Shown piece by piece: positions 1,074-62,280 of a stretch of DNA of 62,280 nt (position 1 is the stretch's first letter; each line of letters starts with the position of its first letter). The notes beneath the pieces are model-generated. The model made no database searches. It saw only the letters and a list, made by a program, of their open reading frames with translations, and was not told the DNA's origin. A program made the translations under genes and the position numbers. Source of the stretch: a virus (taxonomy: Duplodnaviria > Caudoviricetes); IMG/VR virus record IMGVR_UViG_3300030106_001081, positions 1-62,280 of that record; one strand, 5' to 3'.

Positions 1074-1091
1074 GATAAGTAAATACTTATC
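1074..1091. repeat. early-region palindrome copy (GATAAGT-AAAT-ACTTATC)
   Basis: Seen between the stop at 1066 and the AAA ATPase RBS; variant centre. Confidence 0.95.
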
Positions 1092-1112
1092 AAAACCGAA
1101 AGGAAAATTAAA

Positions 1113-2207: not shown

Positions 2208-2215
2208 GGTGAGTG

Positions 2216-2329: not shown

Positions 2330-2339
2330 GGAGGATAAC

Positions 2340-2597
2340 ATGCGAGGACTAGCATACAGAAGAGCTATGGCACATAGAGCCAGAGTGAAAGCGAGAAAGT
2401 CAAAGATGGTAAATTCGATAAGTAATTACTTATCAAAGTCAGACAGGGAAAGGATGGTTAATAAACTAGCCGATAACTTAGCTCAATGTTCTTGCTTTCT
2501 ATGTAAGGGTGAGAAAAAGTTAAACATCCCAACCAAGCAAGAACTTATCGCAATAGACGTAACCAAACTTAATAGAGGAGAACTACATAATGCTTAG
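2340..2597 (+). CDS. small basic protein with CxCxxC motif
   Basis: AAGGAGG RBS before ATG 2340; CSCFLC; contains a palindrome copy read as ISNYLSK. Confidence 0.7.
   Translation: MRGLAYRRAMAHRARVKARKSKMVNSISNYLSKSDRERMVNKLADNLAQCSCFLCKGEKKLNIPTKQELIAIDVTKLNRGELHNA
2417..2434. repeat. early-region palindrome copy (GATAAGTAATTACTTATC), intragenic
   Basis: Perfect 18-bp palindrome inside ORF 2340..2597. Confidence 0.95.
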
Positions 2598-3825: not shown

Positions 3826-3828
3826 ACC

Positions 3829-3846
3829 GATAAGTAATTACTTATC
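3829..3846. repeat. early-region palindrome copy
   Basis: GATAAGTAATTACTTATC 3 nt after the vWA stop, before the next RBS. Confidence 0.95.
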
Positions 3847-3865
3847 AAAATTAAGGAGAGAGAGT

Positions 3866-4954
3866 ATGAACTATAGATATAAAAATTATGTAATCGAAGA
3901 CTTTGCAGAGATGACAGAGAGGTACAACACAACCAAACCTGTTATCAGCAAGAACCACACAAGGGAAGATAACATCAAACCTGTGGGTAGACGGTCACGC
4001 AAGTGGGAACATATGATAAAAGTGTCGGCACGTAAGTACATGATCTATGATGGCTATTGTGAGGGCGACCCGAAATTCAGAGCTTGGTGGAACAGACAGG
4101 GCGAAAATCAGATAACAGAGAAAGAAACTCTAGCCCTTGCACCGATCATGTGGACGCTATCACCGCAGGGTGACATTGAGACTATACGAATACGCAATGG
4201 GTCAGGTGACTACGCACACTGCGCTCGGTATACTTTTCTTGAGAACACGTTACCACTTGGGCTACGGTTTATTGTTCACAATGGTAAGCAGTATATCGAA
4301 ATGGGTAGAGACAAACAAATGTACCTCTTACCCAAGAGCCGATACGCTCCAGTGCGATACGTAAACATGCGAGCATACAAACGGAAAAGTGAGTCTTATT
4401 CTGACAAAGACGACAAGAAGTATCTAACCTTTGCTCGCAAAGTTGGTGGTGACAGATACAGTTGGGAAGTCATTGGTGATACGTGGGATGTACGTGGCGC
4501 ACGTAAACAGGTTAACAAGAAAGCCAAAGCAGAGATCAAACCCTATGCAGATGCGTTCTATGAGTGGGTCACTACAATGTATAGGCTCATACCGTTCACA
4601 GATCACGAATATGCTAGTAAGCAACATCGAGAGTTAAGTGAGTGGGCATTCGAGCAAGGTTTGATAAAAAACACATGGGAACTTAACTCGTATGGGGATA
4701 GTGAGAAATGGCGACATATTGCCGATGAAGTATTCCGTGACGATCAACACCCTATGAGATTGCACCTTGCCGTTAACTTCTTATCACAAAGCAATCTTAA
4801 CGCTTATCGTTATGACCGTGACAATGTAATCAACGAGCCAACGACTAAGGAAGATGTAAGCAGACTACGTTCACAGTGGAACAGATACGTCAACAACAAA
4901 CTTGGGCTTGTTAAAAAGATTGCGCCAGAAAAAATTGTGAAAGGAGAAAAGTAA
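3866..4954 (+). CDS. hypothetical early protein (362 aa)
   Basis: AAGGAGAG RBS then ATG 3866 (preferred to the track start 3704); TAATG coupling to the next gene. Confidence 0.8.
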   Translation: MNYRYKNYVIEDFAEMTERYNTTKPVISKNHTREDNIKPVGRRSRKWEHMIKVSARKYMIYDGYCEGDPKFRAWWNRQGENQITEKETLALAPIMWTLSPQGDIETIRIRNGSGDYAHCARYTFLENTLPLGLRFIVHNGKQYIEMGRDKQMYLLPKSRYAPVRYVNMRAYKRKSESYSDKDDKKYLTFARKVGGDRYSWEVIGDTWDVRGARKQVNKKAKAEIKPYADAFYEWVTTMYRLIPFTDHEYASKQHRELSEWAFEQGLIKNTWELNSYGDSEKWRHIADEVFRDDQHPMRLHLAVNFLSQSNLNAYRYDRDNVINEPTTKEDVSRLRSQWNRYVNNKLGLVKKIAPEKIVKGEK

Positions 4955-5802
4955 TGAGTATATTTAGAAGAGTCAGCCAGTTAACACCTTACGAAGATTG
5001 TAATTCTGGGGGAACTTACGAGTTTGCCTGTGCGATACAAAAGGCCATACGTGGCGTTAAGTTTGGTAAGATTGGTAATGATAGTAACAGGGTACATGTC
5101 TACACCGAAGGGCAACCGTTCACTATGGGTTATATTGGTTACGGCGATTGGCGAGAGAGTGGGTATGAGAATATAGATTATTACAATGTTGTCAGTCCGA
5201 ATATAACCAACGAGAAGTATTCTTATGGTGATGCGAGGTTTAGGAAGATGTCCACCAAACTTAACGTTGCCCTCAAGACTGCCAAGCGTTACTTCCGTAA
5301 TCTCACGCCCGAACAGATGGCACAGAATGAGGCCGAGGGTATACGAGATAGTTACAATAGTATTAGGTATAAACTTAGAGAGGATAAAGAAAAAAAGCAC
5401 AGTAACATATTAGGAGGCGATGCAGTGATCTCGGAGTTTCGTCACATGTTACAACAGGGCTACGAGTTTGTTGACAAGAACTTTGGTGCGGAGGTTCAGG
5501 CATACATAACGTCAATAGATGAACATGCCGAGGCCAAAGCGAAAGGATTGAATGTTGCCTTTGTGCGTGTGTTTGAGAAGTTGGGTGAACAGACATTTCA
5601 AGTTGTTAAGATGCACGGACTTCACAATATGAGTAGACCTTCAAGTGCGTATGTAGATGATGATGCCGTTGAGTATACAGACAAGACGCTACCTGAAGAG
5701 TTAAGGGGTAAGTTATCAATCCTTAACATGTTAGAGAAAGATGGGTATGTCGAAGATGTGGGTTTCAATTCGGGAGACGGACTATTTTATGTCACTCTCT
5801 GA
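4954..5802 (+). CDS. hypothetical early protein (282 aa)
   Basis: AAGGAG RBS, coupled to the previous stop. Confidence 0.8.
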   Translation: MSIFRRVSQLTPYEDCNSGGTYEFACAIQKAIRGVKFGKIGNDSNRVHVYTEGQPFTMGYIGYGDWRESGYENIDYYNVVSPNITNEKYSYGDARFRKMSTKLNVALKTAKRYFRNLTPEQMAQNEAEGIRDSYNSIRYKLREDKEKKHSNILGGDAVISEFRHMLQQGYEFVDKNFGAEVQAYITSIDEHAEAKAKGLNVAFVRVFEKLGEQTFQVVKMHGLHNMSRPSSAYVDDDAVEYTDKTLPEELRGKLSILNMLEKDGYVEDVGFNSGDGLFYVTL

Positions 5803-6028
5803 CACGTTATACAGCGTTACTGTATCAAAACACACAAAAAAGGTTCATGTGACATGTATTGGTATGGAATGTGTTGACAACGAATTAAAAGACGTGTATA
5901 ACTCTGTAGATGATTTGCCGACATGGGTAAAAGATAAGATAGCATTACTCATGTTGGTGGACAAAGGACAAGGTATTGGCTACAGAGTTGGAGATGAAAA
6001 ATTTTACATCTATAAAACCGATAAGTAA
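5789..6028 (+). CDS. hypothetical protein (79 aa)
   Basis: GGGAG upstream of ATG 5789; stop TAA lies inside the palindrome (...KTDK*). Confidence 0.65.
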   Translation: MSLSDTLYSVTVSKHTKKVHVTCIGMECVDNELKDVYNSVDDLPTWVKDKIALLMLVDKGQGIGYRVGDEKFYIYKTDK

Positions 6029-6037
6029 TTACTTATC
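6020..6037. repeat. early-region palindrome copy (last of the series)
   Basis: GATAAGTAATTACTTATC; the 30-bp context 6016..6045 is identical to 60407..60436. Confidence 0.95.
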
Positions 6038-6045
6038 AAAAATGG

Positions 6046-6067
6046 TGAGGGGTCTTCGGACTCCTCA
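6046..6067 (+). terminator. stable cUUCGg hairpin without U-tract (pause/processing/terminator-like)
   Basis: TGAGGGGTC-TTCG-GACTCCTCA. Confidence 0.5.
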
Positions 6068-6092
6068 TAAACGTCGCCAGTTTTTGAAGCCA

Positions 6093-6287
6093 GTGCCTGA
6101 CGTAGTAGATTTAGAGATAAAGATAACAATTAGAGATCAACTAACGCATAGAACAAAAGAGGTAATGTTTGACGGTGCATTGTCCGATGAAACAATACTT
6201 ATGATATACAAGGACGTGGAGAGGGAATTAAAAAATGGTAATGAAACCAGAAGCAAAAGTAAAAAAGGTAGTGGTAAGACAGCTTAA
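6093..6287 (+). CDS. hypothetical protein (start uncertain)
   Basis: Open frame overlapping the VRR-NUC start; GTG 6093 chosen because the upstream part overlaps the hairpin and palindrome. Confidence 0.45.
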   Translation: MPDVVDLEIKITIRDQLTHRTKEVMFDGALSDETILMIYKDVERELKNGNETRSKSKKGSGKTA

Positions 6288-6555
6288 GCTGTTAGGAGCA
6301 TACTACTTCTATCCTGTAACAGGTGGCTACGGTATGTCAGGTGTTCCCGATATTGTCGGGTGCTACAAAGGTACTTTTTTTGGCATTGAATGTAAAGCAG
6401 GTAGCAATAAGCCTACAGCACTACAGCTTAAAAACCTAAAAGATATTGAATTAGCAGGGGGCATAGCCGTTGTTTGTAATGAGAAGAATATGAATATCGT
6501 TGAAGATTTATTGAATTGGTCGGGGGATAGACAGTTGGAGTTTGAGTTTAACTAG
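6235..6555 (+). CDS. VRR-NUC / PD-(D/E)XK nuclease (resolvase-like)
   Basis: E..V, GVPDI, FGIECK, PTALQ motifs. Confidence 0.85.
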   Translation: MVMKPEAKVKKVVVRQLKLLGAYYFYPVTGGYGMSGVPDIVGCYKGTFFGIECKAGSNKPTALQLKNLKDIELAGGIAVVCNEKNMNIVEDLLNWSGDRQLEFEFN

Positions 6556-17697: not shown

Positions 17698-20600
17698 TTA
17701 ATCTTCTTGGTAAGGAGAAACAAAAGCATCTATGGTAGACATTATTATGTTTGGAGGAGGTCCCCAATCTGCTCCGCTAAGTTGTAACCTACGTTTTGTA
17801 GCTTCGTTAAGTATAGCCCCATGATGTGCGTCCGCAGATATTTTAAAACTATTTATTAAAGACCTTTCAATGCCATCATAGTCTATTGCAAATTCAGGAT
17901 ATTTTTTATTATATTTTGTAATTTCTTTAAATATTTCAGGTAATTCATCTTGTTGTTGAAATCTTATCGCAGCAAATATTTTTCTATACAGACTGGTCCG
18001 TTTAGTTCTAATAGCCTTATCTATTTTTTTAAGTTGAGCATTTTCTTGTATTTGTCTAGAGTAATTAGAAGATGAAAAACCTAAAAACTGGGCAAGCACT
18101 CCCCCTGCACTAATATCTTCTACAATCTTATCCCCTCTTCTTGTTATAGCCGTGCCGTCACCAAAATCAGAAAAACGATATGCTTTAAGGGCATTCCTTA
18201 TAGCAGCGGGCAACATAGCCTCAAGACCTCTCATTTTAGCTCCTTCTTGAAAAAATAACTCGTTAGCCCCCCGAACAAAGCTATCAGATATACCCATGAC
18301 AGGTCCCCCTACTGCCATAAATGCTTGATATATTAATGGATTTTCACTTTGGTATATGTTCTTTCGGAAAAGTAAATTAGATAATCCAATACGTGTTGAC
18401 ACGTCAATACCAAGCAATGCGTTAGGTAAACCTCCGTACATACCTTCCTTTACATATTTACGAACAGTTGTTTCAAAATCATCCTCATCGTCGTCCTTAA
18501 AAAACGTATTCATAAAAGTAGCAAGTGTGCCAAATAATGGTACTCCTTGAACACCTGCTAATAACGCTGCAGAACCATAAGTCCCCGCAAGTTTCATTCT
18601 TGCAGAACGTCTTACCTCTTTACTTGCTCCTCTAAGAGCGTCATCTAAATTTTTACCAAGTATATACATCATGGATATACCAAATCGTTTAAATAAAAAT
18701 GCTACTTTACCAATGCCCTTTTGTGCAAATCTTGGAGCAGTTGTGGCTATGTTGCCACCATGAGTAAGTTCGGTTAAATACAAAGCTTTATCTGCAGAGT
18801 CTCGAATCATTTTGTTTGTAATTTTATCTTTTGCGTAGGCTTCTCCTAATTTAGCAGGGTCAATTTTTAATTTTTTTGCTAATTCTAATTCAAAAGCAGT
18901 CATCAATGTAACTTGTCTGTTATATCTTTCTGCATGATGAAATACAAACCCACTAATTTTGTTTATAAGTTCAAAGGGAATATATCCTCCTTCAGGGGGG
19001 CTTTCATAATCTAAAATATCTCCTGTTATACTTCTGTTTAAAGCCCCATTCTCTCTCCAATATTGCACAGCTACTCCAAGATGAGCTATGTCTTTGTTTT
19101 CTTTTGCAGAATAGTCTATATTATCTATAGAAAAACCACCTTCAACTTCTTTATCTTGATATTTTCCATCAGGACCCATTACAGTCACGGTTCTTTTAGA
19201 ACCTATGCTGCGAGTAAAAACTCTACTAGCTCTCCCTAAACTAGTGGTTACTCGCCCAACACCTCCATAATCAGGAGCAAATTGTGGCACTACAACTAAT
19301 GGTATCTGTGATAAGTTTACTACGGCAGAAGACACGTTTGCACCTAATGTAAAAGCAAAACCTGTGCTTGTAGCTACTTTTGCCCAATTTTGAACATATG
19401 GGTCTTGCATAAATTTAGCTCGTAGAGCCAATTCATCTCGTAGAATATAAATATTTTCGCTAACTCTAGCGTCACTCGCACCTTTTGGTATGGTTTCTTT
19501 TATATGTTTTTCTATTCTATCTACTACCTTTTGCACGTCTGCGGCATATTTTATTTGAGTGTATTGGCGAGCCATAGATTTAGCTTTATCTCTGAACCCT
19601 GCTATACCTGCTTCTACTACAGTGGCTTCTTTTACTTTTTGTAGTTTAGATAATGGAGTTGTATCATTAATAAACCCTCTAACACCTTCTCTAGAGCGGA
19701 AAGCTTGTAGTACAGATTGTTCTGGTAAAGCGTCTAAAAACATCTCAATTAATTTATCTTGCACGTCTGTTTCTACGCCTTCTTTTTTTAACATTTTTAA
19801 AACGTCGTTTACAAAAGACCCAGACGGAGCCTTTCTGTACGCATCACCTATTGTTTTACGTTCAAAGTTTTCTGTTTTAATACCATTAGCTTCTAACAAT
19901 TTAGCAGCTTTAGCTCGTTCTGCAGCACTTTCAAATAAATGCACAAACCGTTCATTTTTGTTGTCAGATAGTGGGTCTTTACCACTGTAAGATAGCCAGT
20001 AAGAACCTTTCCGTTGTAAAGAAAAATACGGGTCAATTATACCGCTTTCTTCTATTAATTTTTTATATATTTGACTTACTTTCTTTTTAACGGCCTCACC
20101 GTTTTTACCCACCTCATCTTTAACTCTATTGAGAAATAAGTCTTTTATTCTATTAAAACCTTCAGTGTTAATATTTTTCATTATGTTGTAAATATCTTGA
20201 CCTTTAGATTTTTCTATAGAATCCCAATCTTTTTGCATGTCATCCCACACCTGCAACTTTTCTTTAGAATTTTTAACTTTATTAGTTGGGGTGCTTATAT
20301 AATTTTGTCTGGGTTTACTTGGGTCCACTTGATTTAAAGTTGCTTTTGCTTGCAACCGTAAAATTTTAACCATGTCTTCTTTGTTAGTTCGACCCCATTT
20401 TGTTATATCTTTTATGGTTTGGTCTAGACCACTTGTTATAGTGTCATATTCACCTGTTTGTTTTCTTGCTATTTTATTTAATTCATTAGCTAGATTAACA
20501 CCTTTCCTAGTAAAATATTTTTTTACCATTCTTGTATCAGCAAGCATATTTAATGCCCACAAACCTAACCACCCAGATTTAACTTTACTCGGTACTCGTT

Positions 20601-23600
20601 GAGCCATTAAATTGTCTAATATACTACTGGATTGTTCAGCGGTAATTTCTATTAATTCTGGCGAAGCATCATCAAATTCTTTTTTAGCTTTTTTGGGAGA
20701 AGCCATATAAAACTCTCCTGCATCTCTAAACTTTGGCGCAGGGGCTAGTAAGCTATTAATGAGTCTATCAGTTTTATATTCAGTCCAAGGTATTGTTGGT
20801 TTGTTAGATATTTGCGCAGTGCGACCAAGAACTCTTAACAAGTTATCAATTATATGTTTAATTCTATCAAGCGCCGTTCTTATAACAGATTCTTTTTGGT
20901 CTATGACCTGTGCAACTTTTGCTTGAAAATCTGGGTTACTAAATATTTCAGATACAAACTCATCTAAAGAAGTTGTGCCATATTCAGAATCTATGTTCTT
21001 TTTTATATAATTATATTGTTTAGTAAGTGCTTTTGTTGTTTGACTTGATTTGTTTTTTAACTGTGCCGATACAGCAGCATGTGTCATTTCATGCAATATG
21101 GTATGAGTATTAAGACCGTAGTTTGCGTTTAATTTTATAGTATTTGTTTTAGGGTCAAACGACCCCGCAGCATCTAAATTTTTAACAATTTGAAATTTAG
21201 TAGTGCCAACCACAGTGGCTAATGTTTCTGCGATCCTAGCTACTCTTTCGTTTTTATTTGTAGCTCCTATAGCGAGTAATGTATTTTTTAAATTGCCTGA
21301 AGATAAAGCTCTTAACACCATGTTATGTAACGGTATATCGATACCAGTTATCTCGTCTATTGGTAGGTCTAATTCTTGTTTCCTTGCTGCTTCTATCGCT
21401 GCATCATCATATTCTGTTGCTATTTGTTCTGCATCTTCCGCAGCTTGTATATCTGCTCTATCCCTCTTTACTACACCTCTTGTAATTATTCTATTACCTG
21501 CTTTAGCAGACTGTACTGCACCTTCAAACCAAGTTTGTACTTCCTTACTAAGATTTTTGTTAACCCACTCTTGTACTTGTTTTCCTAAGTTAGAACCCGT
21601 GCCTTTATATATCTCAAGCTCAAGATCACCGTAAAGTGGTACACCATTCTTAGTGGTGTTTATTGTTGGAGGGCTAAGAGCTATATCTTGCGCAGCCGAT
21701 AGTAATCTCTCTAACACAGAAGGAGTTCTGCTAAAAAACTCTTGTACTTTTTTCTCGTAGTTTACATCAGACTTTTTCTTTGGGTCTTTAGATGGAACAC
21801 GTTCAGGTAATTTTTTTCCTATAAGTTGAGTAACTTTATCTATATCTTTTGCGGTTAATGGGTCAGCTTCTAGTGTTTCAGCTTCTTTCTTTTCAAACTC
21901 TAATTGTTTTTTAGTTTCATTAAGATTTTGTTTTAACGTTTTTATACGTCTAAGGTCTAATTGAGCTTCATCTTTTTGACGTTCTGTTAAATTTTTACCT
22001 TCAGTTTGTTTTTTTGCTATTTCTTTTTCTTGAACTTCTATGTTTTTATTAAGTGTATTTATTTTATTTTGTAGAAGTCTAGACTTTTGCACAGGAGTAC
22101 CTAAACCCTCCATATCGTCCCCATACTTACGAGTAAAATCTTTTAATGTTTTTATCCTAGGAGTTGTTTCAGGAGTATTGAAGAATTGCGCTGTACGAGC
22201 AATAATGCTATCTGCTTTTTGTCTTGTTTTTCTTTCTTTAATACGTGCATCTATAGCACCCACTTCAACACCCTCTACCGCACTTATAATTTTACTTGAT
22301 AATTTAGCAGTGTCGTCACCGCCTTTTAATTTTTTAGTTGTCTCTGTACGGGCATCGACTTCTTGAACACTTTCTGCTAACGGGACAGGTTTTCCTTTTG
22401 TAATTATTTTTTTCTTACCTTTTACGACTGCAGGTACTACTTTTGTTTCTTTGAGCAAAGATTTTAAAGGCTTCGGGTAAACAGAAGTTACGGCGGGTTC
22501 TTTTTTCTCCGTAGGTTTTTTCTGGTCAAGATTATAGAAAGAACGAACTTCATCTATTAAATCTTGTCGAGCTTTTGTTTCTTCTTCAAGGGTTGCATCC
22601 ATTCTTCCAGAGGCAAGATATCCTGGTTGGCTTTGATTAAAATCTTCTGGAGTTTTTATTTCTTCATCTCTTATTCTATTTGTTATAGTAGACTCCATTC
22701 TTAAATTAAAATCTACAGCCCCAGTTCTAGGAGTTTTTAAAACTCTACCTTTAAGGTTAGAAACGTCAACAAGCACTTCTTGTTGTTCTTTGATTAAGTT
22801 CTTTGCACGATCTACAGGATTTTTTACTTCGCTACTAGATGGTGTGGCTTTCCCTATACCAAGCTCTTTAACTTTTTTATTGTGTTTTTGTTCTAAACTA
22901 TCTGAGAGTGCAGGCATATAGGCTTTAATATCTTTTCTTGGAACATCATACCTAATTACTCTTTGAAAATCGCCGACTCTATTTTTTGTAGCCTCCATAG
23001 TGGATTGTGTTGCTAGTTTAACAAAAGCGGCACTTCCTTTAGGAGTCAAAGAAGCAGAGACAAGCTTTTCTTGTTTAGGTTTTGTTTTTTTGTCGTATGC
23101 AATAAATCTATATACAGGTATTGTATCTCCTTCAGGTAAACCTGTTACAGCACGTTTAGATAATTCAGGACTTTCTTCTATTTTTTTAACTACAGTGTCT
23201 CTACCTGTTCTTTCATCGTTAACATAAGCTACTACTGTTTCTTCTGGCGATAACGTATCTGTGTTTAATGCACTGTCGTCTCCGACTTCTCTATCATCAA
23301 CTCCTCCAGTAACTGACTTATCTTCTTCCACTCCTTCGGTTTCAGATGCTCTAATTCTTTTGGGATCAACAAGTTCTTCTTCGGTCTCCTCGACAACATC
23401 ACTCTTTGTATCATCTTGAACGCCAACTCTAGCTCCTGCTGTGTCAATAATTGCATTTTTCTCTCCTACTGGTATTGTTGTTACACCTTCTTCTGTTGTG
23501 TACGCAAGTAATTCTTTTTCTGCTTTAGCTTTTGCACCTTCTGCTTTAATTTGTTCTTTTCGTACTCTTTCTAACTCTGTTGTTAAATCTGTTACATCTT

Positions 23601-24813
23601 TTGCAAGACTATCTTCATCTGTTTTGCCCTCTATAGGGTCATCTGGAAAAAACATTTTATCAATAGCAGCTTCGTCTCTTTCCCTCATTCTTTTTTGAGT
23701 TACATCTATTGGTTCTGTTTCAGGAGTAATAATACCCGTGAATTTTTGTAACTCATCAGCTAATTCTTTGTCAGCTTTTCTTTTTTGTTTTTCTAATCTT
23801 CTTAACTCGTTGCTCTCTAATTCATCTACAGTTCTCTCGTCATCTCCAATAGTTGCATCGCCTTGAAGTATATTAGTAGCACCTCTTACTGTACCACCTA
23901 CAAGTGCCGCTGCCCTACCCGCTTCTACATACTCACTTATAGCTTCATCACTAAATAAATCTAACCCCGCCTGCGCTCTTTCAATTACTTGTTGCCCTAT
24001 TTCTGTAGGAACTTCTGCTACTGCACCTACACCTACACCTTTAACTGCCCTAGTAAATAAACCCCCACCCCGTAACATTTTAGGAGTAATAAACTTACCA
24101 AACAATAATTTGTCAGCTATACCTTCTAAAGCTGCTTGCGGTATAGATGAGAAAAACGCCGCACCTTCGTTTACTTCTGTTCTAAGTCCTTGATCTATAG
24201 CTTCTTTTTGTCGTTCTCTATTAAGACCATAAAAAAGAGGAATTTGTGTAAGTGCGGCTGCCCCCGCTGCTATAATAAAGGCAGGTACTGCACCGACTAC
24301 GGCTGCAGGTGCGGCTAATGCTGCTATTCCTAGCCCCGCTGCACCGATAGCAAGTTGAGGAGCTTGTTCTCCAAGCACTTGTGCATAATAACCTAAAGCC
24401 CCTTCACCTCTAGCTCTACTTTGAGCCTCTAACCTGTTACGCTCTGCAACCTCTGCGCCATATTCTTCTAGCCCCTCTGCACCTGTAATTCTTCCAATGC
24501 CTTCAAGAGTAGAACCTGTAGCTTGTTGTATTACGTCAATACCAGATTTAACTCCTCCAACAAAAGCGCTATCGTCTTGTTGTTGTGCTACTCCTAATTC
24601 TTCTAATATAGATTGTTTTAAAGCTTCTCTATCTTCAAGATCAGTGGTTAAAGGAGTATCTACTTCAGGAGTTGTAGTTGAAGGAATAAGTTGTTGTTCT
24701 GCAAGTATGCCTTGTAAAGCCCCTATTATTTGAGACTCACTAGCTCCTCTAGGTCCTTTAAGCCTGTATATTTGTCCATCAGGACCTTGAACTCTATATA
24801 TTTGTTCAGACAC
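17698..24813 (-). CDS. giant internal virion/ejection protein with ART-like and HExxH metallopeptidase-like domains
   Basis: 2371 aa, last large gene of the structural arm; hydrophobic Ala/Gly N-region; VYR..SASL..QQEVLV; HEMTH..DEFVSE. Confidence 0.75.
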   Translation of the reverse strand: MSEQIYRVQGPDGQIYRLKGPRGASESQIIGALQGILAEQQLIPSTTTPEVDTPLTTDLEDREALKQSILEELGVAQQQDDSAFVGGVKSGIDVIQQATGSTLEGIGRITGAEGLEEYGAEVAERNRLEAQSRARGEGALGYYAQVLGEQAPQLAIGAAGLGIAALAAPAAVVGAVPAFIIAAGAAALTQIPLFYGLNRERQKEAIDQGLRTEVNEGAAFFSSIPQAALEGIADKLLFGKFITPKMLRGGGLFTRAVKGVGVGAVAEVPTEIGQQVIERAQAGLDLFSDEAISEYVEAGRAAALVGGTVRGATNILQGDATIGDDERTVDELESNELRRLEKQKRKADKELADELQKFTGIITPETEPIDVTQKRMRERDEAAIDKMFFPDDPIEGKTDEDSLAKDVTDLTTELERVRKEQIKAEGAKAKAEKELLAYTTEEGVTTIPVGEKNAIIDTAGARVGVQDDTKSDVVEETEEELVDPKRIRASETEGVEEDKSVTGGVDDREVGDDSALNTDTLSPEETVVAYVNDERTGRDTVVKKIEESPELSKRAVTGLPEGDTIPVYRFIAYDKKTKPKQEKLVSASLTPKGSAAFVKLATQSTMEATKNRVGDFQRVIRYDVPRKDIKAYMPALSDSLEQKHNKKVKELGIGKATPSSSEVKNPVDRAKNLIKEQQEVLVDVSNLKGRVLKTPRTGAVDFNLRMESTITNRIRDEEIKTPEDFNQSQPGYLASGRMDATLEEETKARQDLIDEVRSFYNLDQKKPTEKKEPAVTSVYPKPLKSLLKETKVVPAVVKGKKKIITKGKPVPLAESVQEVDARTETTKKLKGGDDTAKLSSKIISAVEGVEVGAIDARIKERKTRQKADSIIARTAQFFNTPETTPRIKTLKDFTRKYGDDMEGLGTPVQKSRLLQNKINTLNKNIEVQEKEIAKKQTEGKNLTERQKDEAQLDLRRIKTLKQNLNETKKQLEFEKKEAETLEADPLTAKDIDKVTQLIGKKLPERVPSKDPKKKSDVNYEKKVQEFFSRTPSVLERLLSAAQDIALSPPTINTTKNGVPLYGDLELEIYKGTGSNLGKQVQEWVNKNLSKEVQTWFEGAVQSAKAGNRIITRGVVKRDRADIQAAEDAEQIATEYDDAAIEAARKQELDLPIDEITGIDIPLHNMVLRALSSGNLKNTLLAIGATNKNERVARIAETLATVVGTTKFQIVKNLDAAGSFDPKTNTIKLNANYGLNTHTILHEMTHAAVSAQLKNKSSQTTKALTKQYNYIKKNIDSEYGTTSLDEFVSEIFSNPDFQAKVAQVIDQKESVIRTALDRIKHIIDNLLRVLGRTAQISNKPTIPWTEYKTDRLINSLLAPAPKFRDAGEFYMASPKKAKKEFDDASPELIEITAEQSSSILDNLMAQRVPSKVKSGWLGLWALNMLADTRMVKKYFTRKGVNLANELNKIARKQTGEYDTITSGLDQTIKDITKWGRTNKEDMVKILRLQAKATLNQVDPSKPRQNYISTPTNKVKNSKEKLQVWDDMQKDWDSIEKSKGQDIYNIMKNINTEGFNRIKDLFLNRVKDEVGKNGEAVKKKVSQIYKKLIEESGIIDPYFSLQRKGSYWLSYSGKDPLSDNKNERFVHLFESAAERAKAAKLLEANGIKTENFERKTIGDAYRKAPSGSFVNDVLKMLKKEGVETDVQDKLIEMFLDALPEQSVLQAFRSREGVRGFINDTTPLSKLQKVKEATVVEAGIAGFRDKAKSMARQYTQIKYAADVQKVVDRIEKHIKETIPKGASDARVSENIYILRDELALRAKFMQDPYVQNWAKVATSTGFAFTLGANVSSAVVNLSQIPLVVVPQFAPDYGGVGRVTTSLGRASRVFTRSIGSKRTVTVMGPDGKYQDKEVEGGFSIDNIDYSAKENKDIAHLGVAVQYWRENGALNRSITGDILDYESPPEGGYIPFELINKISGFVFHHAERYNRQVTLMTAFELELAKKLKIDPAKLGEAYAKDKITNKMIRDSADKALYLTELTHGGNIATTAPRFAQKGIGKVAFLFKRFGISMMYILGKNLDDALRGASKEVRRSARMKLAGTYGSAALLAGVQGVPLFGTLATFMNTFFKDDDEDDFETTVRKYVKEGMYGGLPNALLGIDVSTRIGLSNLLFRKNIYQSENPLIYQAFMAVGGPVMGISDSFVRGANELFFQEGAKMRGLEAMLPAAIRNALKAYRFSDFGDGTAITRRGDKIVEDISAGGVLAQFLGFSSSNYSRQIQENAQLKKIDKAIRTKRTSLYRKIFAAIRFQQQDELPEIFKEITKYNKKYPEFAIDYDGIERSLINSFKISADAHHGAILNEATKRRLQLSGADWGPPPNIIMSTIDAFVSPYQED

Positions 24814-59154: not shown

Positions 59155-59260
59155 ATCTACTCGCAGGTTGCCAACCGAATATGGTGCGTAGCTGCAAGGT
59201 AATTAGTCAACAAAATGATTCTTAAAAAATAATGTTAAAATAACACAGCCACGCAAAAAC

Positions 59261-59290
59261 ATTATATAACGCAAAAAATTTTTTTGTAAA
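59261..59290 (-). promoter_or_regulatory. sigma70-like late promoter upstream of terS
   Basis: TTTACA-N18-TATAAT on the - strand. Confidence 0.6.
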
Positions 59291-59297
59291 GTAGTTT

Positions 59298-59342
59298 GGG
59301 ACTCCAAAGGGGGGGTGTTCCTATATAGAGGGGGGTGGGGGG
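59298..59342 (+). other. G-tract cluster between the divergent arms
   Basis: GGG, G7, G6, G6 within 45 bp of an AT-rich spacer. Confidence 0.7.
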
Positions 59343-59490
59343 TCCAATCTCAGAATTTTACGATTTATTTGAGTAAATTAATATATATACACCTGCGTAT
59401 AGCTATAACAGCATAGCGGGCCATGCCCTACCCGTACCCATTAAATACCACCAAAAAACACTATATGGTAATATATTTCATCTCATACCA

Positions 59491-59559: not shown

Positions 59560-59577
59560 GATAAGTAATTACTTATC
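59560..59577. repeat. early-region palindrome copy (first of the series)
   Basis: GATAAGTAATTACTTATC in the leader of the first early gene. Confidence 0.95.
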
Positions 59578-59600
59578 ACATTTTGAAAGGAAATAGCCAA

Positions 59601-60419
59601 ATGGCGAAATCAAATATAATTACTGAAGAGTTTGCGAAATCATTAGAAGAAAAGGGGATTGCAGAAATGCAAGGCTCTTTGGCAGTATATCAAGAATTAA
59701 ACTTGTTATGCGATCAATCCACTGATCCCGCAAAGGAAATTGCGAATGGGTACGACACAAACCGTAATTGGGATAAGGCTAAGACTAGGCTAAGTAAAAA
59801 AGTCTATGATAGTATTATCTTTCCTATGTTTTGCGCAATTGCTCATGGTGGTCGAAAGAGCGCGGCTTTTATAGCCATTCAAGAATTTACTGATAATTTT
59901 ACTACCTATGATAAAGATAAGATCAAAGATACTAGGTATGATAAAGTTATCGAAACTATTCATGGTAAAATGATAAGTTTGGATAGGGCGCTTGCTATGG
60001 TCGGCGACAAAAATAGAAAGTATGTCAAACGTGTTGCTGATATAGCTATGGCTAACAAAGTCGAGGCTTTTGAGGCTAAAGAAGATCAAGCTCTAGCTAA
60101 GAAGTTTGCAAGTATAGATGCTAACGAAAGTAAAACTGAAGATCAAAAGACTGATCTTAAGAATAAGGCTTTCGCAGCAAGTAAAGAAAGAGTTGCTGCA
60201 TATACTCGCAAGGCTAAAAATTCAACTAAGGATAACAATAAGTCTGACTATGCTAGTAAATTGGATAGGGCTTGGAAGGTTGTTATTGCCGAGTTAGCAA
60301 ATGTTGAAAAGTTAAATGCGAAGAGTAAGGTATTCGGGAAAGCTATGACGTGTAAGTTTGACACTCCTGAAGATCTACTTGAGCACGTTAAGTCGATCGC
60401 AACATTAACCGATAAGTAA
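59601..60419 (+). CDS. hypothetical helical early protein (272 aa)
   Basis: GAAAGGA RBS; stop TAA inside the palindrome (...LTDK*). Confidence 0.8.
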   Translation: MAKSNIITEEFAKSLEEKGIAEMQGSLAVYQELNLLCDQSTDPAKEIANGYDTNRNWDKAKTRLSKKVYDSIIFPMFCAIAHGGRKSAAFIAIQEFTDNFTTYDKDKIKDTRYDKVIETIHGKMISLDRALAMVGDKNRKYVKRVADIAMANKVEAFEAKEDQALAKKFASIDANESKTEDQKTDLKNKAFAASKERVAAYTRKAKNSTKDNNKSDYASKLDRAWKVVIAELANVEKLNAKSKVFGKAMTCKFDTPEDLLEHVKSIATLTDK

Positions 60420-60428
60420 TTACTTATC
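60411..60428. repeat. early-region palindrome copy
   Basis: GATAAGTAATTACTTATC. Confidence 0.95.
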
Positions 60429-60434
60429 AAAAAT

Positions 60435-60456
60435 GGGATGCAAGAAATTGCATCCC
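60435..60456 (+). terminator. GAAA-tetraloop hairpin without U-tract
   Basis: GGGATGCAA-GAAA-TTGCATCCC. Confidence 0.5.
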
Positions 60457-60479
60457 GACAACCCGAAAGGATAAAAACA

Positions 60480-60578
60480 ATGCAAGACGAACACGTTATG
60501 GCATGGGCAAGACTGCAGCCCAAACCAATGCCATTAATTCTAAAATTGTTATTGCAACGCAAAATTGCAAGAGATTAG
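60480..60578 (+). CDS. small peptide (32 aa)
   Basis: GAAAGGA RBS; MQDEHVMAWARLQPKPMPLILKLLLQRKIARD*. Confidence 0.5.
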   Translation: MQDEHVMAWARLQPKPMPLILKLLLQRKIARD

Positions 60579-60580
60579 AT

Positions 60581-60730
60581 ATGGGAAAGAATATCTACAA
60601 GAAAGTAATTGAAGGCGTAAAGAAAGCACGTAAATTAAAAAGGGCCGCTCGTAGATCAAAAGACTTGCGGCGGCGTTTAAAATCGATGCAAGGTTATCAT
60701 GAGCTAATTGATAGTCTTACGCCACGCTAA
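60581..60730 (+). CDS. small basic peptide (49 aa)
   Basis: ATG 2 nt after the previous stop; Arg/Lys-rich. Confidence 0.5.
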   Translation: MGKNIYKKVIEGVKKARKLKRAARRSKDLRRRLKSMQGYHELIDSLTPR

Positions 60731-60735
60731 AACTT

Positions 60736-60753
60736 TGGGAGCTACGGCTCCCA
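60736..60753 (+). terminator. cUACGg hairpin
   Basis: TGGGAGC-TACG-GCTCCCA; no U-tract. Confidence 0.5.
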
Positions 60754-60874
60754 TCGTCGCCAGTGTTCTGACTAGCGTAGCGTCTTGACGTGTCACTCTA
60801 TATTACACAATCCCCCCCGTAATCTGATAAGTGATTACTTATCGTCGCCAGTGTTCTGACTAGCGTAGCGTCTT
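60753..60874 (+). repeat. 34-bp exact direct repeat, two copies (60753..60786, 60841..60874)
   Basis: ATCGTCGCCAGTGTTCTGACTAGCGTAGCGTCTT. Confidence 0.95.
60826..60843. repeat. early-region palindrome copy (GATAAGT-GATT-ACTTATC)
   Basis: Variant centre. Confidence 0.95.
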
Positions 60875-60891
60875 AACATGTTACTATAAGT

Positions 60892-60909
60892 GATAAGTGA
60901 TTACTTATC
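60892..60909. repeat. early-region palindrome copy (GATAAGT-GATT-ACTTATC)
   Basis: Variant centre. Confidence 0.95.
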
Positions 60910-60915
60910 GAATTT

Positions 60916-61260
60916 GTAATGTTCGGTAATGTTCGGTAATGTTCGGTGAATGTTCGGTTTTTTTAGAGCAAAAACGAACAATATGTTTCGTGGTATCTAA
61001 TGGTATCTAATAGCAAGTAGTAATAAATAATATAGTAAAAATAGGTATATATATATATATATCTTATAATGTTCGTTTTCTAAAATTTATGCGGTGACAT
61101 TTTGCTTACCCCCCTAATGTTCGTTTTTCTACACTCTTCTCTCCCCCACATTTTGCCCTCTTCATAATTCCTGTAAAAAACGAACATTAGAACATTCCAA
61201 TCTTTTCAGATACTTGCAAGCCCTACTAACAGAACATTATGGAACATTACCGAACATTAC
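60916..61260. repeat. iteron-like inverted repeat array with AT-rich core (putative replication origin)
   Basis: (GTAATGTTCG)x3 plus a variant on the left, GAACATTA(C/T)x3 inverted on the right, internal TAATGTTCGTTTT/AAAACGAACA copies, (TA)8 core. Confidence 0.75.
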
Positions 61261-61315
61261 ACTAAAACACACTATTTACTAAAACATACCACTTCTAAAT
61301 CTCACAAAATAGTTC

Positions 61316-61344
61316 TTGACATTTCGTGTTATTTGTGTTATACT
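61316..61344 (+). promoter_or_regulatory. near-consensus sigma70 early promoter
   Basis: TTGACA-N17-TATACT with extended -10 TG. Confidence 0.85.
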
Positions 61345-61401
61345 GTAGGCATAATCGAAATATATCTAAAAAACAGGTCATTTACCACAGGAGAACATGT
61401 T

Positions 61402-61620
61402 ATGACACAGAAAAAACCGATAAGTAATTACTTATCAAAACCACGATGTAAGGAGTGTGGGGAAAGATACAATCCCAAGCGCAAAGCTTTGGGGTATACC
61501 ACTTGTCTAGATTGTGGATCACCTATCAAGCAATTTTGCACGGTAGTGTTTCACAAGCAAGCCCCGCAGGTCGTAACACGTTTAGAGCAACTGACCCAAA
61601 CAAACCAGAAAAACCGATAA
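61402..61620 (+). CDS. C4 zinc-finger protein, DksA/TraR-finger-like
   Basis: AGGAG RBS; CKECGE....R..LGY.TCLDC. Confidence 0.65.
   Translation: MTQKKPISNYLSKPRCKECGERYNPKRKALGYTTCLDCGSPIKQFCTVVFHKQAPQVVTRLEQLTQTNQKNR
61419..61436. repeat. early-region palindrome copy, intragenic (ISNYLSK)
   Basis: GATAAGTAATTACTTATC. Confidence 0.95.
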
Positions 61621-61633
61621 GTAATTACTTATC
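61616..61633. repeat. early-region palindrome copy, supplies the Zn-finger gene stop
   Basis: AAC CGA TAA GTAATTACTTATC. Confidence 0.95.
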
Positions 61634-61656
61634 AAAAACCAGAAAGGAGAAAGACT

Positions 61657-62250
61657 ATGAGTAAACAAAACGAAATGATGGCACAGGCACTCAAGGAGTA
61701 CATGCAAATGAGAGCCGACGATATCGCAGAGGTGTATGAGATAATGTCGATAGAAGATGTTAAGACCAGAAACGCACGGGAAGATAAATACATCGAAGAC
61801 ACACTCAATGACGTGTTCGCACGTAACATGCCAGAACTACAGGAAGAAGACATGGAGGTGGACGAGACAATATACCACCCAAGTGCAGAACCAAAGCCAT
61901 TCGTAAAACCACGAACTATAGAAGAAGTAAACAAACTGAAGGGAGAAACCAAAAGAAAAAAGAAGAGTATCCTTGTGTTGATGGACAAGTTACACCCACG
62001 AACTCAAGAGTATATCAAATGGGTGTTTAAATATGGGGTGGGTATTTTAATTCCAAATGACAGTCCCGAAATGAAACGTAATTGTATTGAAACTGCATTA
62101 CGGTTTGAGCAAAGCACAGGCAAAACATATGCCCCAAGTGAGCCTTGGATTAATGAACTTAACAGAGCGATAGATGCACAATACGGCAGTATTGCAGAAA
62201 GAAAAAGAAAATTTAAACTAAACAAACCAAAGGGAGAAACCAATGAGTAA
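61657..62250 (+). CDS. hypothetical early protein (197 aa)
   Basis: AAAGGAG RBS; acidic N-half, basic C-half. Confidence 0.8.
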   Translation: MSKQNEMMAQALKEYMQMRADDIAEVYEIMSIEDVKTRNAREDKYIEDTLNDVFARNMPELQEEDMEVDETIYHPSAEPKPFVKPRTIEEVNKLKGETKRKKKSILVLMDKLHPRTQEYIKWVFKYGVGILIPNDSPEMKRNCIETALRFEQSTGKTYAPSEPWINELNRAIDAQYGSIAERKRKFKLNKPKGETNE

Positions 62251-62280
62251 AGCAAAAGTAATATGGAGCATCGAAAAAGA
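62243..62280 (+). CDS. 5' part of a hypothetical gene running off the window end (likely joins 3..188)
   Basis: AAGGGAG RBS + MSKAKVIWSIEK... Confidence 0.55.
   Translation, partial: MSKAKVIWSIEK

What the first reader, a model, noticed from the sequence alone, without database searches (positions are those of the whole stretch)
59560..61633. Ten copies of an 18-bp palindrome GATAAGT-N4-ACTTATC confined to the early region: candidate undescribed control or cassette system
Seen: copies at 59560, 60411, 60826, 60892, 61419, 61616, 1074, 2417, 3829 and 6020, i.e. within ~9 kb of the circular map; I noticed none in the other 53 kb. The 7-bp arms are invariant and only the centre varies (AATT x7, GATT x2, AAAT x1). 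Most copies have oriented flanks (AACC left, AAA right). No integrase or evident repressor lies nearby. Inference, as alternatives: (a) operators or roadblocks for a dimeric phage or host protein, or a decoy array titrating one; (b) RNA or ssDNA hairpins for processing, antitermination or stepwise injection; (c) recombination sites making the early region an integron-like array of exchangeable host-interaction genes.
Basis: partly seen in the sequence, partly recalled or inferred. Interest (0 to 1): 0.85.

Follow-up and report, generated by a model that had tools for sequence, protein, structure and literature searches.

The report
Phage early-region palindromic operator-like array
Ten identical 18-base palindromes punctuate the early genes of this uncultured marine phage, and its many relatives each carry their own version at the same places, which most likely marks the landing sites of a still unidentified phage regulator.

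Summary
There are 10 exact copies of GATAAGT-N4-ACTTATC, with 0 expected by chance and no extra copies at up to 2 mismatches. All lie in 8.8 kb of the plus-strand early arm.

The feature is shared by the whole phage family. All 80 fetched relatives, out of 310 found, carry 7-8 bp-arm palindromes with 3-4 nt centres at the same junctions. Arm sequences differ between phages (GTTAGTG, GTTAGGG, GTTAGTC, TTTACGG, TGTAGTG and others). In 26 relatives there are 0 copies in 164 kb of late genes against 216 in 274 kb of early/middle genes.

The arms are nearly invariant and the centres are free in sequence. Dyad symmetry runs through the centre, there is no G:U excess, and I found no phage RNA polymerase. 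I therefore favour duplex-DNA sites for a symmetric phage-encoded regulator (about 45%) over RNA or DNA hairpins. The binding protein was not identified.

Some gene insertions and mosaics are bounded by the palindromes. An integron-like system is not supported.

The closest published parallel is the unexplained 17-bp repeat of Cluster O mycobacteriophages. This scan noted the same motif family earlier on other DNA (e1-371580).

The parts
59560..59577 (.). Palindrome copy (centre AATT), 23 nt before the ATG of the 272-aa ORF at 59601
60411..60428 (.). Palindrome copy (AATT). It contains the TAA stop of ORF 59601-60419 and is followed by AAAAAT and the GC hairpin at 60435-60456 (GAAA loop).
60826..60843 (.). 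Palindrome copy (GATT) in the non-coding control region, at the end of the first 88-bp tandem unit
60892..60909 (.). Palindrome copy (GATT) in the control region, directly before the TAATGTTCGG iterons
61419..61436 (.). Palindrome copy (AATT) inside the N-terminal codons of the Zn-ribbon ORF, about 70 nt downstream of the sigma-70-type promoter
   Evidence: the same placement with other arm sequences occurs in L012, L013 and L116
61616..61633 (.). Palindrome copy (AATT). It contains the TAA stop of the Zn-ribbon ORF and lies 23 nt before ATG 61657.
1074..1091 (.). Palindrome copy (AAAT) between the DUF3150-like gene (185-1066) and the MoxR-type AAA gene (ATG 1113)
2417..2434 (.). Palindrome copy (AATT) inside ORF 2319-2597, or 19 nt before its in-frame ATG at 2454. 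L012 has a one-mismatch GATAAGT-like copy at the equivalent place.
3829..3846 (.). Palindrome copy (AATT) between the DUF2201/vWA gene (stop 3825) and ATG 3866. In L007 the same slot holds GGTTAGTC-AGT-GACTAACC.
6020..6037 (.). Palindrome copy (AATT). It contains the stop of ORF 5741-6028 and is followed by AAAAAT, the UUCG hairpin at 6045-6068, and then GTCGCCAGT.
61316..61344 (+). Consensus sigma-70-type early promoter (TTGACA-17-TATACT with TG)
   Evidence: equivalent promoters in L012, L047 and L049
60753..60888 (+). Two tandem 48-nt units (GTCGCCAGT...TAGCGT...) of a second family-wide motif (CCAGTT-N7-9-TAGCGT..GAG), each followed by a palindrome. A third copy lies at 6072-6110.
60917..61260 (.). 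Origin-like block: TAATGTTCG iterons at 60917, 60927, 60937, 61067 and 61115; an AT run near 61046-61062; and inverted GAACATT copies at 61182-61252
61402..61620 (+). First early gene, a 72-aa CxxC...CxxC zinc ribbon with only a weak TraR/DksA-like signal, boxed by two palindromes
59601..60419 (+). 272-aa orphan ORF preceded by a palindrome. It is the positional counterpart of the variable f10/f210 gene of relatives and a weak candidate for the binding protein.

Best explanation
The palindromes are most likely duplex-DNA binding sites (operators) for a symmetric, probably dimeric, phage-encoded DNA-binding protein. That protein would act on the whole plus-strand early/middle arm. Early transcription starts from an ordinary sigma-70-type promoter. 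The protein would then sit on sites spread through the control region, the leader and the gene junctions. There it would block or silence host RNA polymerase, for example to shut off early genes, much as repeated operator or 'stoperator' arrays do in other phages. Each phage lineage has its own arm sequence, which implies a regulator that changes together with its sites. Shown here: the sites, their symmetry, their confinement to the early arm, and their family-wide presence with lineage-specific sequence. Inferred: that a protein binds them, that the phage encodes it, and that binding represses transcription. As a side effect, the repeated units of palindrome plus spacer plus SD serve as break and join points when early genes are gained or lost.
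For: (1) The sites are non-random and arm-specific. The window has 10 copies against 0 expected. In 26 relatives with full flanks there are 0 sites in 164,004 bp of late genes against 216 in 273,842 bp of the early/middle arm.

(2) The feature is family-wide and the sequence is lineage-specific. In 75 of 80 loci a perfect palindrome recurs at least twice, and all 80 hold at least one site of the core types (median 7). There are 424 non-redundant sites: GTTAGTG 224, GTTAGGG 95, GTTAGTC 35, TTTACGG 20, GATAAGT 16, TGTAGTG 12, TTTAGGG 9, and smaller groups.

(3) Both arms are under base-by-base constraint. There are 436 perfect sites against 44 with one mismatch.

(4) The centre is free in sequence, yet symmetry continues through it. 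Of 127 four-nt centres, 65 are self-complementary. Of 295 three-nt centres, 158 have complementary outer bases against 91 expected. A hairpin loop has no need for this. The phage's real RNA hairpins use UUCG, GAAA or UACG loops instead.

(5) Spacer length is mostly uniform within a genome. Only 21 of 424 sites have the minority length.

(6) There is no wobble signal: G:T+T:G 7 against A:C+C:A 7 among one-mismatch sites.

(7) Sites are kept inside coding N-termini with whatever arm sequence the genome uses. This holds for the Zn-ribbon gene in the window, L012, L013 and L116, and for the DUF3150-like gene in most relatives.

(8) Host RNA polymerase drives the early genes. There is a consensus sigma-70 promoter here and in L012, L047 and L049.

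(9) A published parallel is read the same way by its authors. These are the Cluster O 17-bp TGTTCGG-NNN-CCGAACA repeats (PMC4351075, section 8 read). I confirmed 34 copies in Corndog.
Against: No binding protein was identified.
- The positional orphan gene family (f10) folds confidently (pLDDT 91) but matches nothing in the PDB.
- The model of the window's 272-aa orphan is poor (pLDDT 63) and matches nothing.
- The Zn ribbon does not track arm type. Similar proteins go with GTTAGTG, GTTAGTC and GTTAGGG.
- No core gene tree tracks the type (9-14 changes against a minimum of 5-8).

Most sites are far from any promoter and lie inside operons.

Sites are enriched right before SD+ATG (131 of 421 against 313 of 4,210 random positions). 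The base after the arm is A in 86% of sites, but its mirror base is T in only 57%. This points to an oriented function at the RNA or translation level.

Twelve of 51 loci mix 3- and 4-nt centres, which a rigid dimer would tolerate poorly.

Genomes with two arm types exist (L061, L073, L007, L116). In those genomes one regulator could not serve all sites.

Copies are related by descent, so the counts overstate the number of independent events.
Confidence: 0.45

Rival explanations
1. The palindromes act as RNA hairpins in the polycistronic early transcripts. A 7-bp stem-loop just upstream of each ribosome-binding site would serve as a processing, stabilising or translation-control element. It might be recognised by a phage RNA-binding or RNA-cutting protein in the manner of Cas6/Csy4 hairpins. 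Alternatively it might simply insulate each SD from upstream structure.
For: All sites lie in the sense-transcribed arm. Sites are enriched at gene junctions. SD+ATG lies 8-30 nt downstream in 131 of 421 sites against 313 of 4,210 random positions, and a long ORF ends within 25 nt in 171 of 421 against 460 of 4,210. The hairpin is the predicted fold in all 10 copies, at about -6.2 kcal/mol with flanks and SD unpaired. An A follows the stem in 86% of sites. Pairing does not extend beyond +/-1.
Against: Loop sequence is unconstrained and often self-complementary. There is no excess of G:U-compatible mismatches (7 against 7; P = 0.04 if 3:1 were expected). Identical stems within a genome would need a reader of stem sequence, which is rare for RNA. 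Triloops dominate (295 of 424 sites). Some copies lie in the control region or upstream of predicted promoters, where transcription is uncertain. The phage uses UNCG or GNRA loops when it builds real RNA hairpins.
Confidence: 0.2
2. The palindromes are primarily recombination linkers. Short identical units (palindrome plus spacer plus SD) at gene junctions would let co-infecting relatives swap, gain or lose early genes. This could work by short-homology recombination or by a structure-specific nuclease acting on extruded cruciforms. Any regulatory role would be secondary.
For: L061 carries a 293-bp insert (a 62-aa gene) with donor-type TTTACGG palindromes, placed directly after a resident GTTAGTG palindrome. 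L057 has 95.7% identical flanks and lacks the insert. Further palindrome-bounded indels separate L049 from L034 and L087/L090 from L084/L086/L089. In L116 the Zn-ribbon segment between window positions 61411 and 61644 is replaced by a 590-bp segment with three GTTAGGG palindromes, and homology resumes about 10 nt after the palindrome. L007 has a precise swap of the site at 3829. The arm left of the DUF3150-like gene is variable and dense in palindromes. A VRR-NUC/Hjc-like nuclease lies at 6235-6555. Deletions between repeats are also reported for Cluster O (PMC4351075, section 8).
Against: There is no control for how often indels end elsewhere. Only 18 of 991 junction queries matched, reflecting about 4 events. 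Other variants of this very phage use other repeats or none: L109 has a deletion not at palindromes, and L118 and L120 recombined between similar gene starts. No joints at palindromes appeared in four metagenome runs. No recombinase or integrase was found. Perfect symmetry and base-by-base conservation of both arms exceed what a homology patch needs. Sites also lie between core genes that are never exchanged.
Confidence: 0.12
3. The palindromes are DNA hairpin or cruciform promoters of the kind used by coliphage N4's virion RNA polymerase. The replication and early module of this phage is distantly N4-like.
For: The AAA and DUF2201/vWA proteins have their nearest cultured relatives in N4-like phages, at about 24-32% identity. 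The genome layout resembles N4, with a giant 2371-aa virion protein at the arm boundary. Stems of 7 bp with 3-nt loops match the N4 hairpin dimensions (PMC4496689 and PMC3715699, passages read).
Against: No RNA polymerase domain appears in any scanned ORF. The 2371-aa protein looks like a polyvalent ejection protein, with an HEMTH zincin motif, LPD39 and a DarB-like C-terminus. The two conserved orphan early proteins have no invariant Asp and no PDB or Pfam hit. The early promoter is a consensus sigma-70 type. N4 needs a conserved central purine in the loop, whereas here the centre base of 3-nt loops is C 132, G 85, T 40 and A 38. There are ten or more copies inside operons instead of about three at operon heads.
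Confidence: 0.04
4. The palindromes are sites for a host protein, meaning a host regulator box or nucleoid protein that the phage exploits or titrates.
For: The outer GATAA...TTATC resembles a Fur-type box (recalled, not tested). The first early gene is a weakly TraR-like host-RNAP modulator.
Against: Close relatives (AAA protein 76-89% identical) carry four different arm sequences. The exact 18-mer occurs once each in 14 scattered bacterial genomes among 185,579 species, which I estimate to be roughly chance level, and never in clusters. Spacing differs from the Fur box.
Confidence: 0.04

Closest known systems
17-bp palindromic repeats of Cluster O mycobacteriophages (Corndog: TGTTCGG-NNN-CCGAACA, 34 copies), PMC4351075
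   Same: Both have 7-bp invariant inverted arms with a short variable centre and many exact copies per genome. Copies are mostly in short intergenic spaces, with some near 5' ends of genes or inside genes. The phage has no integrase. Deletions occur between copies. The function is unknown, and the authors propose a dimeric regulator. The outer TGTT...AACA is shared with the commonest type here (TGTTAGTG...CACTAACA). Sources.
   Different: The Corndog repeats are spread over the whole genome and both transcription directions. Here they are confined to the early/middle arm. One sequence is shared by all five Cluster O phages, whereas here the arms differ between close relatives. No protein homology was detected between the window and Corndog (tblastn E <= 1e-3).
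Stoperators of Cluster A mycobacteriophages (L5 gp71 repressor). Recalled, and mentioned in the PMC4351075 discussion.
   Same: There are many copies of one short site in short intergenic regions of operons. The sites are read as roadblocks to elongating host RNA polymerase, and site and repressor co-evolve between relatives.
   Different: Stoperators are asymmetric 13-bp sites oriented with transcription, and they belong to temperate phages with a known repressor. Here the sites are symmetric, the phage has no integrase, and no repressor is known.
Conserved inverted repeats (CIR operators) of Streptomyces phage phiC31 and the OB operators of KorB on plasmid RK2. Both are recalled from memory and come from no call.
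   Same: Each has a dozen or more near-identical palindromic operators spread over intergenic regions, bound by one global regulator. The OB half-site TTTAGC resembles the TTTAGGG and GTTAGGG arms seen here.
   Different: Both have an identified binding protein (the phiC31 repressor and the ParB-family KorB). No ParB/KorB-like or repressor-like domain was found in the window.
PeSL cassettes of T4-type phages and SAS/ESAS repeats of Cluster K mycobacteriophages. PeSL is recalled. SAS is mentioned in the PMC4351075 discussion.
   Same: These are repeated regulatory units at the junctions of small early genes. They are linked to gene shuffling (PeSL) or sit directly before start codons (SAS).
   Different: PeSLs carry a promoter plus stem-loop, and SAS is an asymmetric SD-containing word. 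Here the repeated unit is a perfect palindrome 19-23 nt before the ATG and has no promoter.
Hairpin promoters of coliphage N4 virion RNA polymerase (PMC4496689, PMC3715699)
   Same: Both are short inverted repeats (5-7 bp stem, 3-nt loop) in the early region of a phage whose replication module is distantly related.
   Different: N4 has three copies at operon heads, a conserved loop purine and a virion RNA polymerase. None of these holds here.

Membership tests
N4-type DNA-hairpin early promoter | A phage-encoded, virion-packaged T7-like RNA polymerase is present | tested here: not met
   No RNA polymerase family appears in Pfam or PHROGs scans of all large ORFs and most small ORFs. The 2371-aa and 1456-aa proteins have no PDB sequence match to N4 vRNAP. 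A very divergent polymerase in the 1456-aa protein is not strictly excluded.
N4-type DNA-hairpin early promoter | A 3-nt loop with a conserved central purine, with about three copies at the heads of early operons | tested here: not met
   Window centres are 4 nt long. In relatives the central base of 3-nt centres is C 132, G 85, T 40 and A 38 of 295. There are 10 copies, mostly inside operons.
Cluster O-type 17-bp palindromic phage repeat | Two invariant 7-bp inverted arms, a short variable centre, and many exact copies in one phage genome | tested here: met
   The published definition was read in PMC4351075 section 8 and re-counted in Corndog (34 copies).
Cluster O-type 17-bp palindromic phage repeat | Genome-wide distribution, and membership of the Corndog-like phage group | tested here: not met
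   There are 0 sites in late arms against 216 in early/middle arms. There are no tblastn hits between window ORFs and Corndog.
Stoperator array (Cluster A mycobacteriophages) | An asymmetric site in one orientation relative to transcription | tested here: not met
   The sites are perfect palindromes. Only the flanks are oriented.
Stoperator array (Cluster A mycobacteriophages) | A cognate repressor encoded by the phage binds the sites | not testable with these tools
   The candidates are the 59601 orphan, the f10 family, the HTH_17 protein at 13393 and the DUF6378 protein at 7427. They gave no decisive fold or family result.
Integron attC / cassette array | A tyrosine-recombinase integrase (IntI) next to the array | tested here: not met
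   No integrase or recombinase family was found in any scanned ORF.
Integron attC / cassette array | Imperfect R''-L''...L'-R' sites with extrahelical bases, with the RYYYAAC...GTTRRRY order | tested here: not met
   The sites are perfect, 17-18 bp long, and in the reverse order (GTTAG..-N-..CTAAC).
Integron attC / cassette array | Genes are gained and lost as units bounded by the sites | tested here: inconclusive
   About 4 palindrome-bounded indels plus the L116 and L007 mosaics were found. There was no control, and other variants break elsewhere.
Intrinsic (Rho-independent) terminator | A GC-rich stem followed by a U tract on the transcribed strand | tested here: not met
   The terminator scan did not flag them. 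The stems are AT-rich and followed by A runs.
ParB-parS / KorB-OB type site array | A ParB/KorB-family protein encoded by the element | tested here: not met
   No ParBc or KorB family appears in the scanned ORFs. Fold-level similarity of the orphan proteins could not be settled (the wide fold library was unavailable).

The most novel reading that the evidence does not exclude
The palindrome type is an 'immunity type' of a virulent marine phage family. An early, fast-evolving regulator would silence every early operon that carries its own palindrome. A resident phage would thereby shut down late-arriving relatives of the same type. Frequency-dependent selection would then drive the rapid, concerted switching of arm sequence seen among close relatives. 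The shared palindrome-plus-SD units would at the same time act as the joints through which early host-takeover genes are traded. This would be a Cluster-A-like heteroimmunity and stoperator logic operating in lytic ocean phages.
Probability: 0.15. Interest if true: 0.75.

Novelty: new variant of a known kind. Interest (0 to 1): 0.5.

Why it matters
Repeated palindromes of this size have been reported in phages (Cluster O) without an explanation. This window belongs to a large uncultured marine family: 310 related stretches in IMG/VR, with near-identical DNA in marine or seawater metagenomes of 14 studies. In this family the same slots hold different palindromes in close relatives. That natural swap experiment offers hundreds of site and genome combinations. 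With them one can find the binding protein by covariation and ask whether such arrays control early-gene shut-off, competition between co-infecting phages, or gene exchange. If the regulator is found, it would also give a compact, orthogonal set of operator and repressor pairs.

Tried and rejected
RNA evidence. The look-up of sequencing runs listed no RNA holder. The two metatranscriptome rows held next to none of the words.

Read laying on four DNA runs. Only short unitigs were laid, and they break at the repeats. There was no joint at a palindrome. One joint (61015 to 61232) lies inside the iteron block.

Phage RNA polymerase. I searched by Pfam, PHROGs, PDB sequence and motif and found none. 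A homology search with the 1456-aa protein gave 4 unnamed proteins.

Binding-protein hunt.
- f10 family: model pLDDT 91, no Foldseek PDB match at E <= 0.001, and no Pfam family.
- The 59601 orphan: only 3 close homologues, model pLDDT 63, and no match. A winged-helix plus coiled-coil impression from the secondary structure is not reliable.
- hhalign of f10 against the 59601 family: probability 0.2%.
- Zn ribbon: only weak TraR or zinc-ribbon hits (E about 0.01), and it does not track arm type.
- Gene-tree test: no core gene follows the type. The f10/f210 tree follows it somewhat (12 changes, minimum 8, shuffled mean 18.2), but that gene is physically linked to the sites.
- Protein atlas: DUF3150-like for ORF 185-1066 and nothing for ORF 4954-5802.

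Stem extension or covariation beyond the arms. None was found, and pairing at +/-2 to +/-4 is below expectation.

T7-like promoter resemblance. GTTAGTG-act-CACTAAC contains GACTCACTA. I rejected this because it depends on one loop variant and there is no polymerase.

Host operator. A genome-contig scan gave 14 single scattered hits.

Cultured relatives. Phage 023Pt_psg01 (TerL 46% identical) has no repeated palindrome in its first 50 kb. The window had no nucleotide match in the phage collection.

Literature. PMC9599517 on the HTVC023P type has no occurrence of 'promoter', 'palindrom', 'hairpin' or 'RNA polymerase'. PMC12753301 had nothing relevant. Searches found no description of this array and no follow-up on the Cluster O repeats. 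Supplementary files were not opened.

CRISPR-repeat mimicry (Racr-like, PMC10651486, seen in a search listing only). I considered it but did not test it, because the host is unknown and the conserved part is only about 18-26 nt.

Full report
**Observation.** The pattern GATAAGT-N4-ACTTATC occurs exactly 10 times in the 62,280-bp window. Zero copies are expected from shuffles. Allowing two mismatches adds none. The window is a complete IMG/VR virus record whose ends split a gene. The copies at 59560-61633 and 1074-6037 therefore form one 8,758-bp cluster.

**Context.** Plus-strand genes run from about 59601 across the record end to about 17200. They include:
- an orphan 272-aa gene;
- a 72-aa zinc ribbon;
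- a DUF3150-like protein;
- a MoxR-type AAA ATPase;
- a DUF2201 metallopeptidase/vWA protein;
- a VRR-NUC-like nuclease;
- PolA, an SNF2 helicase, an SSB and a DUF927 primase-helicase.

Minus-strand genes (17698-59154) are structural. They include the terminase, the capsid and a 2371-aa polyvalent ejection protein.

A consensus sigma-70-type promoter lies at 61316-61344. Upstream of it is a gene-free control region. It holds a UACG hairpin, two 88-bp tandem units of a second motif (GTCGCCAGT...TAGCGT), two palindromes, direct and inverted TAATGTTCG iterons, and an AT run that looks like an origin.

The ten palindromes are placed as follows:
- four or five lie 19-23 nt before an SD+ATG;
- three supply the stop codon of the gene before them;
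- one lies inside the zinc-ribbon ORF;
- two lie in the control region;
- two (60411, 6020) are followed by AAAAAT and a strong tetraloop hairpin.

**The feature belongs to a large phage family.** The AAA protein has 310 related stretches in IMG/VR. I fetched 80 of them, at 68-89% identity. In 75 of 80 a perfect palindrome recurs at least twice. All 80 have sites of the core types, with a median of 7 per locus.

The sites occupy the same slots as in the window:
- before the positional orphan gene left of the control region;
- in the control region beside the second motif;
- in the leader or the first codons of the first early gene;
- before and inside the DUF3150-like gene;
- before the AAA gene, and further junctions.

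The arm sequence differs between phages. Among 424 non-redundant sites the types are GTTAGTG (224), GTTAGGG (95), GTTAGTC (35), TTTACGG (20), GATAAGT (16), TGTAGTG (12), TTTAGGG (9) and others. The four nearest relatives of the window each have a different type. In 26 loci with a full left flank there are 0 sites in 164 kb of late genes and 216 in 274 kb of the early/middle arm.

**Anatomy statistics.**
- There are 436 perfect sites against 44 with one mismatch.
- Centres are 3 nt in 295 sites and 4 nt in 127 sites, and they vary in sequence.
- Symmetry continues into the centre. Of the 4-nt centres, 65 of 127 are self-complementary. Of the 3-nt centres, 158 of 295 have complementary outer bases against 91 expected.
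- Beyond position +/-1 the flanks pair less often than expected.
- The base 3' of the arm is A in 86% of sites, while the mirror base is T in 57%.
- Sites are enriched at junctions. SD+start lies 8-30 nt downstream in 131 of 421 sites against 313 of 4,210 random positions. A long ORF ends within 25 nt in 171 of 421 against 460 of 4,210.
- Still, about half of the sites are not directly before a start.

**Hairpin-promoter idea.** The early and replication module is distantly N4-like, and N4 uses DNA-hairpin promoters (PMC4496689 and PMC3715699, passages read). I found no RNA polymerase. The early promoter is host-type here and in three relatives. The loop base that N4 requires is not conserved. 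I reject this reading, at about 4%.

**RNA hairpin idea.** The stem-loop is the predicted fold in all ten contexts, at about -6.2 kcal/mol with the SD free. The junction enrichment and the 3' A fit an RNA-level role. Several points count against it:
- there is no excess of wobble-compatible mismatches (7 against 7);
- loops are unconstrained and often self-complementary;
- triloops predominate;
- stems within a genome are identical, which structure alone does not require;
- where this phage makes strong RNA hairpins it uses UUCG, GAAA or UACG loops.

I keep this reading at about 20%.

**Duplex operator idea.** Four features are what a symmetric dimer on double-stranded DNA would produce: base-by-base conservation of both arms, a free but symmetric centre, a mostly uniform spacer length within a genome (21 of 424 sites differ), and lineage-specific arm sequences. 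The same reading was offered for the closest published case, the Cluster O mycobacteriophage repeat TGTTCGG-NNN-CCGAACA (PMC4351075, abstract passages and section 8 read). I re-counted 34 copies in Corndog.

The weak points are these:
- I could not name the protein;
- 12 of 51 loci mix spacer lengths;
- genomes with two types exist (L061, L073, L007, L116);
- most sites are not at promoters.

I rate this reading at about 45%.

**Recombination.** I built junction queries across pairs of palindromes. Of 991 queries, 18 matched. The clearest case is L061 against L057, whose flanks are 95.7% identical. L061 has a 62-aa gene with donor-type TTTACGG palindromes inserted right after a resident GTTAGTG palindrome.

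Among metagenome contigs of the window's own type, L116 replaces the zinc-ribbon segment (window 61411-61644) with a 590-bp segment. That segment carries another zinc ribbon, an extra 99-aa gene and three GTTAGGG palindromes. L007 has a precise swap of the 3829 site.

Other variants break elsewhere (L109, L118, L120), and four metagenome runs showed no joint at a palindrome. I read the recombination as a real but probably secondary property of repeated palindrome-plus-SD units. I give about 12% to its being the primary function. An integron-like mechanism fails its defining tests.

**Search for the binding protein.** Candidate by candidate:
- The zinc ribbon diverges fast (38-43% identity, where the AAA protein is 76-89%). 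But similar zinc ribbons accompany three different arm types.
- No core gene tree tracks the type.
- The gene left of the control region is position-conserved and sequence-variable. It is the f10 family in most relatives, a divergent f210 branch with the TTTACG types, an unrelated 229-aa ORF in L012, and the 59601 orphan family in the GATAAGT-type contigs that cover that position (L005, L110, L111, L114). Its tree follows the local type fairly well (12 changes, minimum 8). It is physically linked to the sites, though, and its confident model has no known DNA-binding fold match.

The question stays open.

**Comparison and novelty.** The kind of element is known: many exact copies of a short palindrome at gene junctions of a phage. 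The known cases are Cluster O, plus the phiC31 CIRs, Cluster A stoperators and KorB OB sites, which I recall from memory. The new points are:
- strict confinement to the early/middle arm;
- concerted switching of arm sequence among close relatives;
- retention inside coding N-termini;
- a fixed unit with the SD;
- occurrence in a large uncultured marine family.

I found no description of this family in print. This scan had already noted the same motif family on other DNA (e1-371580, GTTAG-N-CTAAC) and read it as an operator array.

**Verdict.** This is a real, family-wide regulatory-looking array. It is most likely a set of operators for an unidentified regulator. I rate it of moderate interest (0.5).

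Noticed in passing
window 60753-60888 and 6072-6110; L012 7340-7470, L047 1040-1160, L049 8270-8300: A second family-wide motif, CCAGTT-N7-9-TAGCGT-N-GAG, often runs into AATGTTC. It follows terminator hairpins in 2-3 tandem copies in the control region and appears again at the end of the early operon. It looks like a phage-specific (middle?) promoter or an activator site, and it is not sigma-70-like.
   Followed up: partly
window 60917-61260: Direct TAATGTTCG iterons (x5) and inverted GAACATT copies (x5) flank an AT-rich run. This looks like a replication origin and is conserved in layout in L012, L047 and L049. One metagenome contig skips 61015-61232.
   Followed up: partly
window 59260-59345: The G-rich non-coding element GGGGGGGTGTTCCTATATAGAGGGGGGTGGGGGGTCC lies next to the leftward TTTACA-18-TATAAT promoter. 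It is fully conserved in L005 while its flanks diverge. It has about 5-fold higher contig depth than its surroundings in two metagenomes, with many different loose ends, so many phages appear to share it.
   Followed up: no
window 61643-61676 and 62229-62262: Two neighbouring early genes start with near-identical SD-plus-first-codon stretches. Contigs L118 and L120 appear to have recombined between these stretches, removing or rearranging gene 61657-62250.
   Followed up: partly
window 17698-24813 (-): The 2371-aa virion protein has an HEMTH zincin motif near residue 1240, an LPD39 domain, and a C-terminal region matching 'DarB-like antirestriction' PHROGs. It is probably a polyvalent ejected protein and not a polymerase.
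   Followed up: partly
L012 11284-11301: A GTTAGTC-type relative keeps a one-mismatch GATAAGT-type copy (AATAAGT-AATT-ACTTATC) at the slot equivalent to window 2417, inside a conserved small ORF. This may be a relic of an earlier type or a site held in place by coding constraint.
   Followed up: no
loci L045, L013, L075 and others (f10 family, ~170 aa; no window copy detected): A conserved all-alpha early protein carries the motif SPK..ST...KRYWQQQIGARRNDFK. It is modelled at pLDDT 91 and has no PDB fold match or Pfam family.
   Followed up: partly
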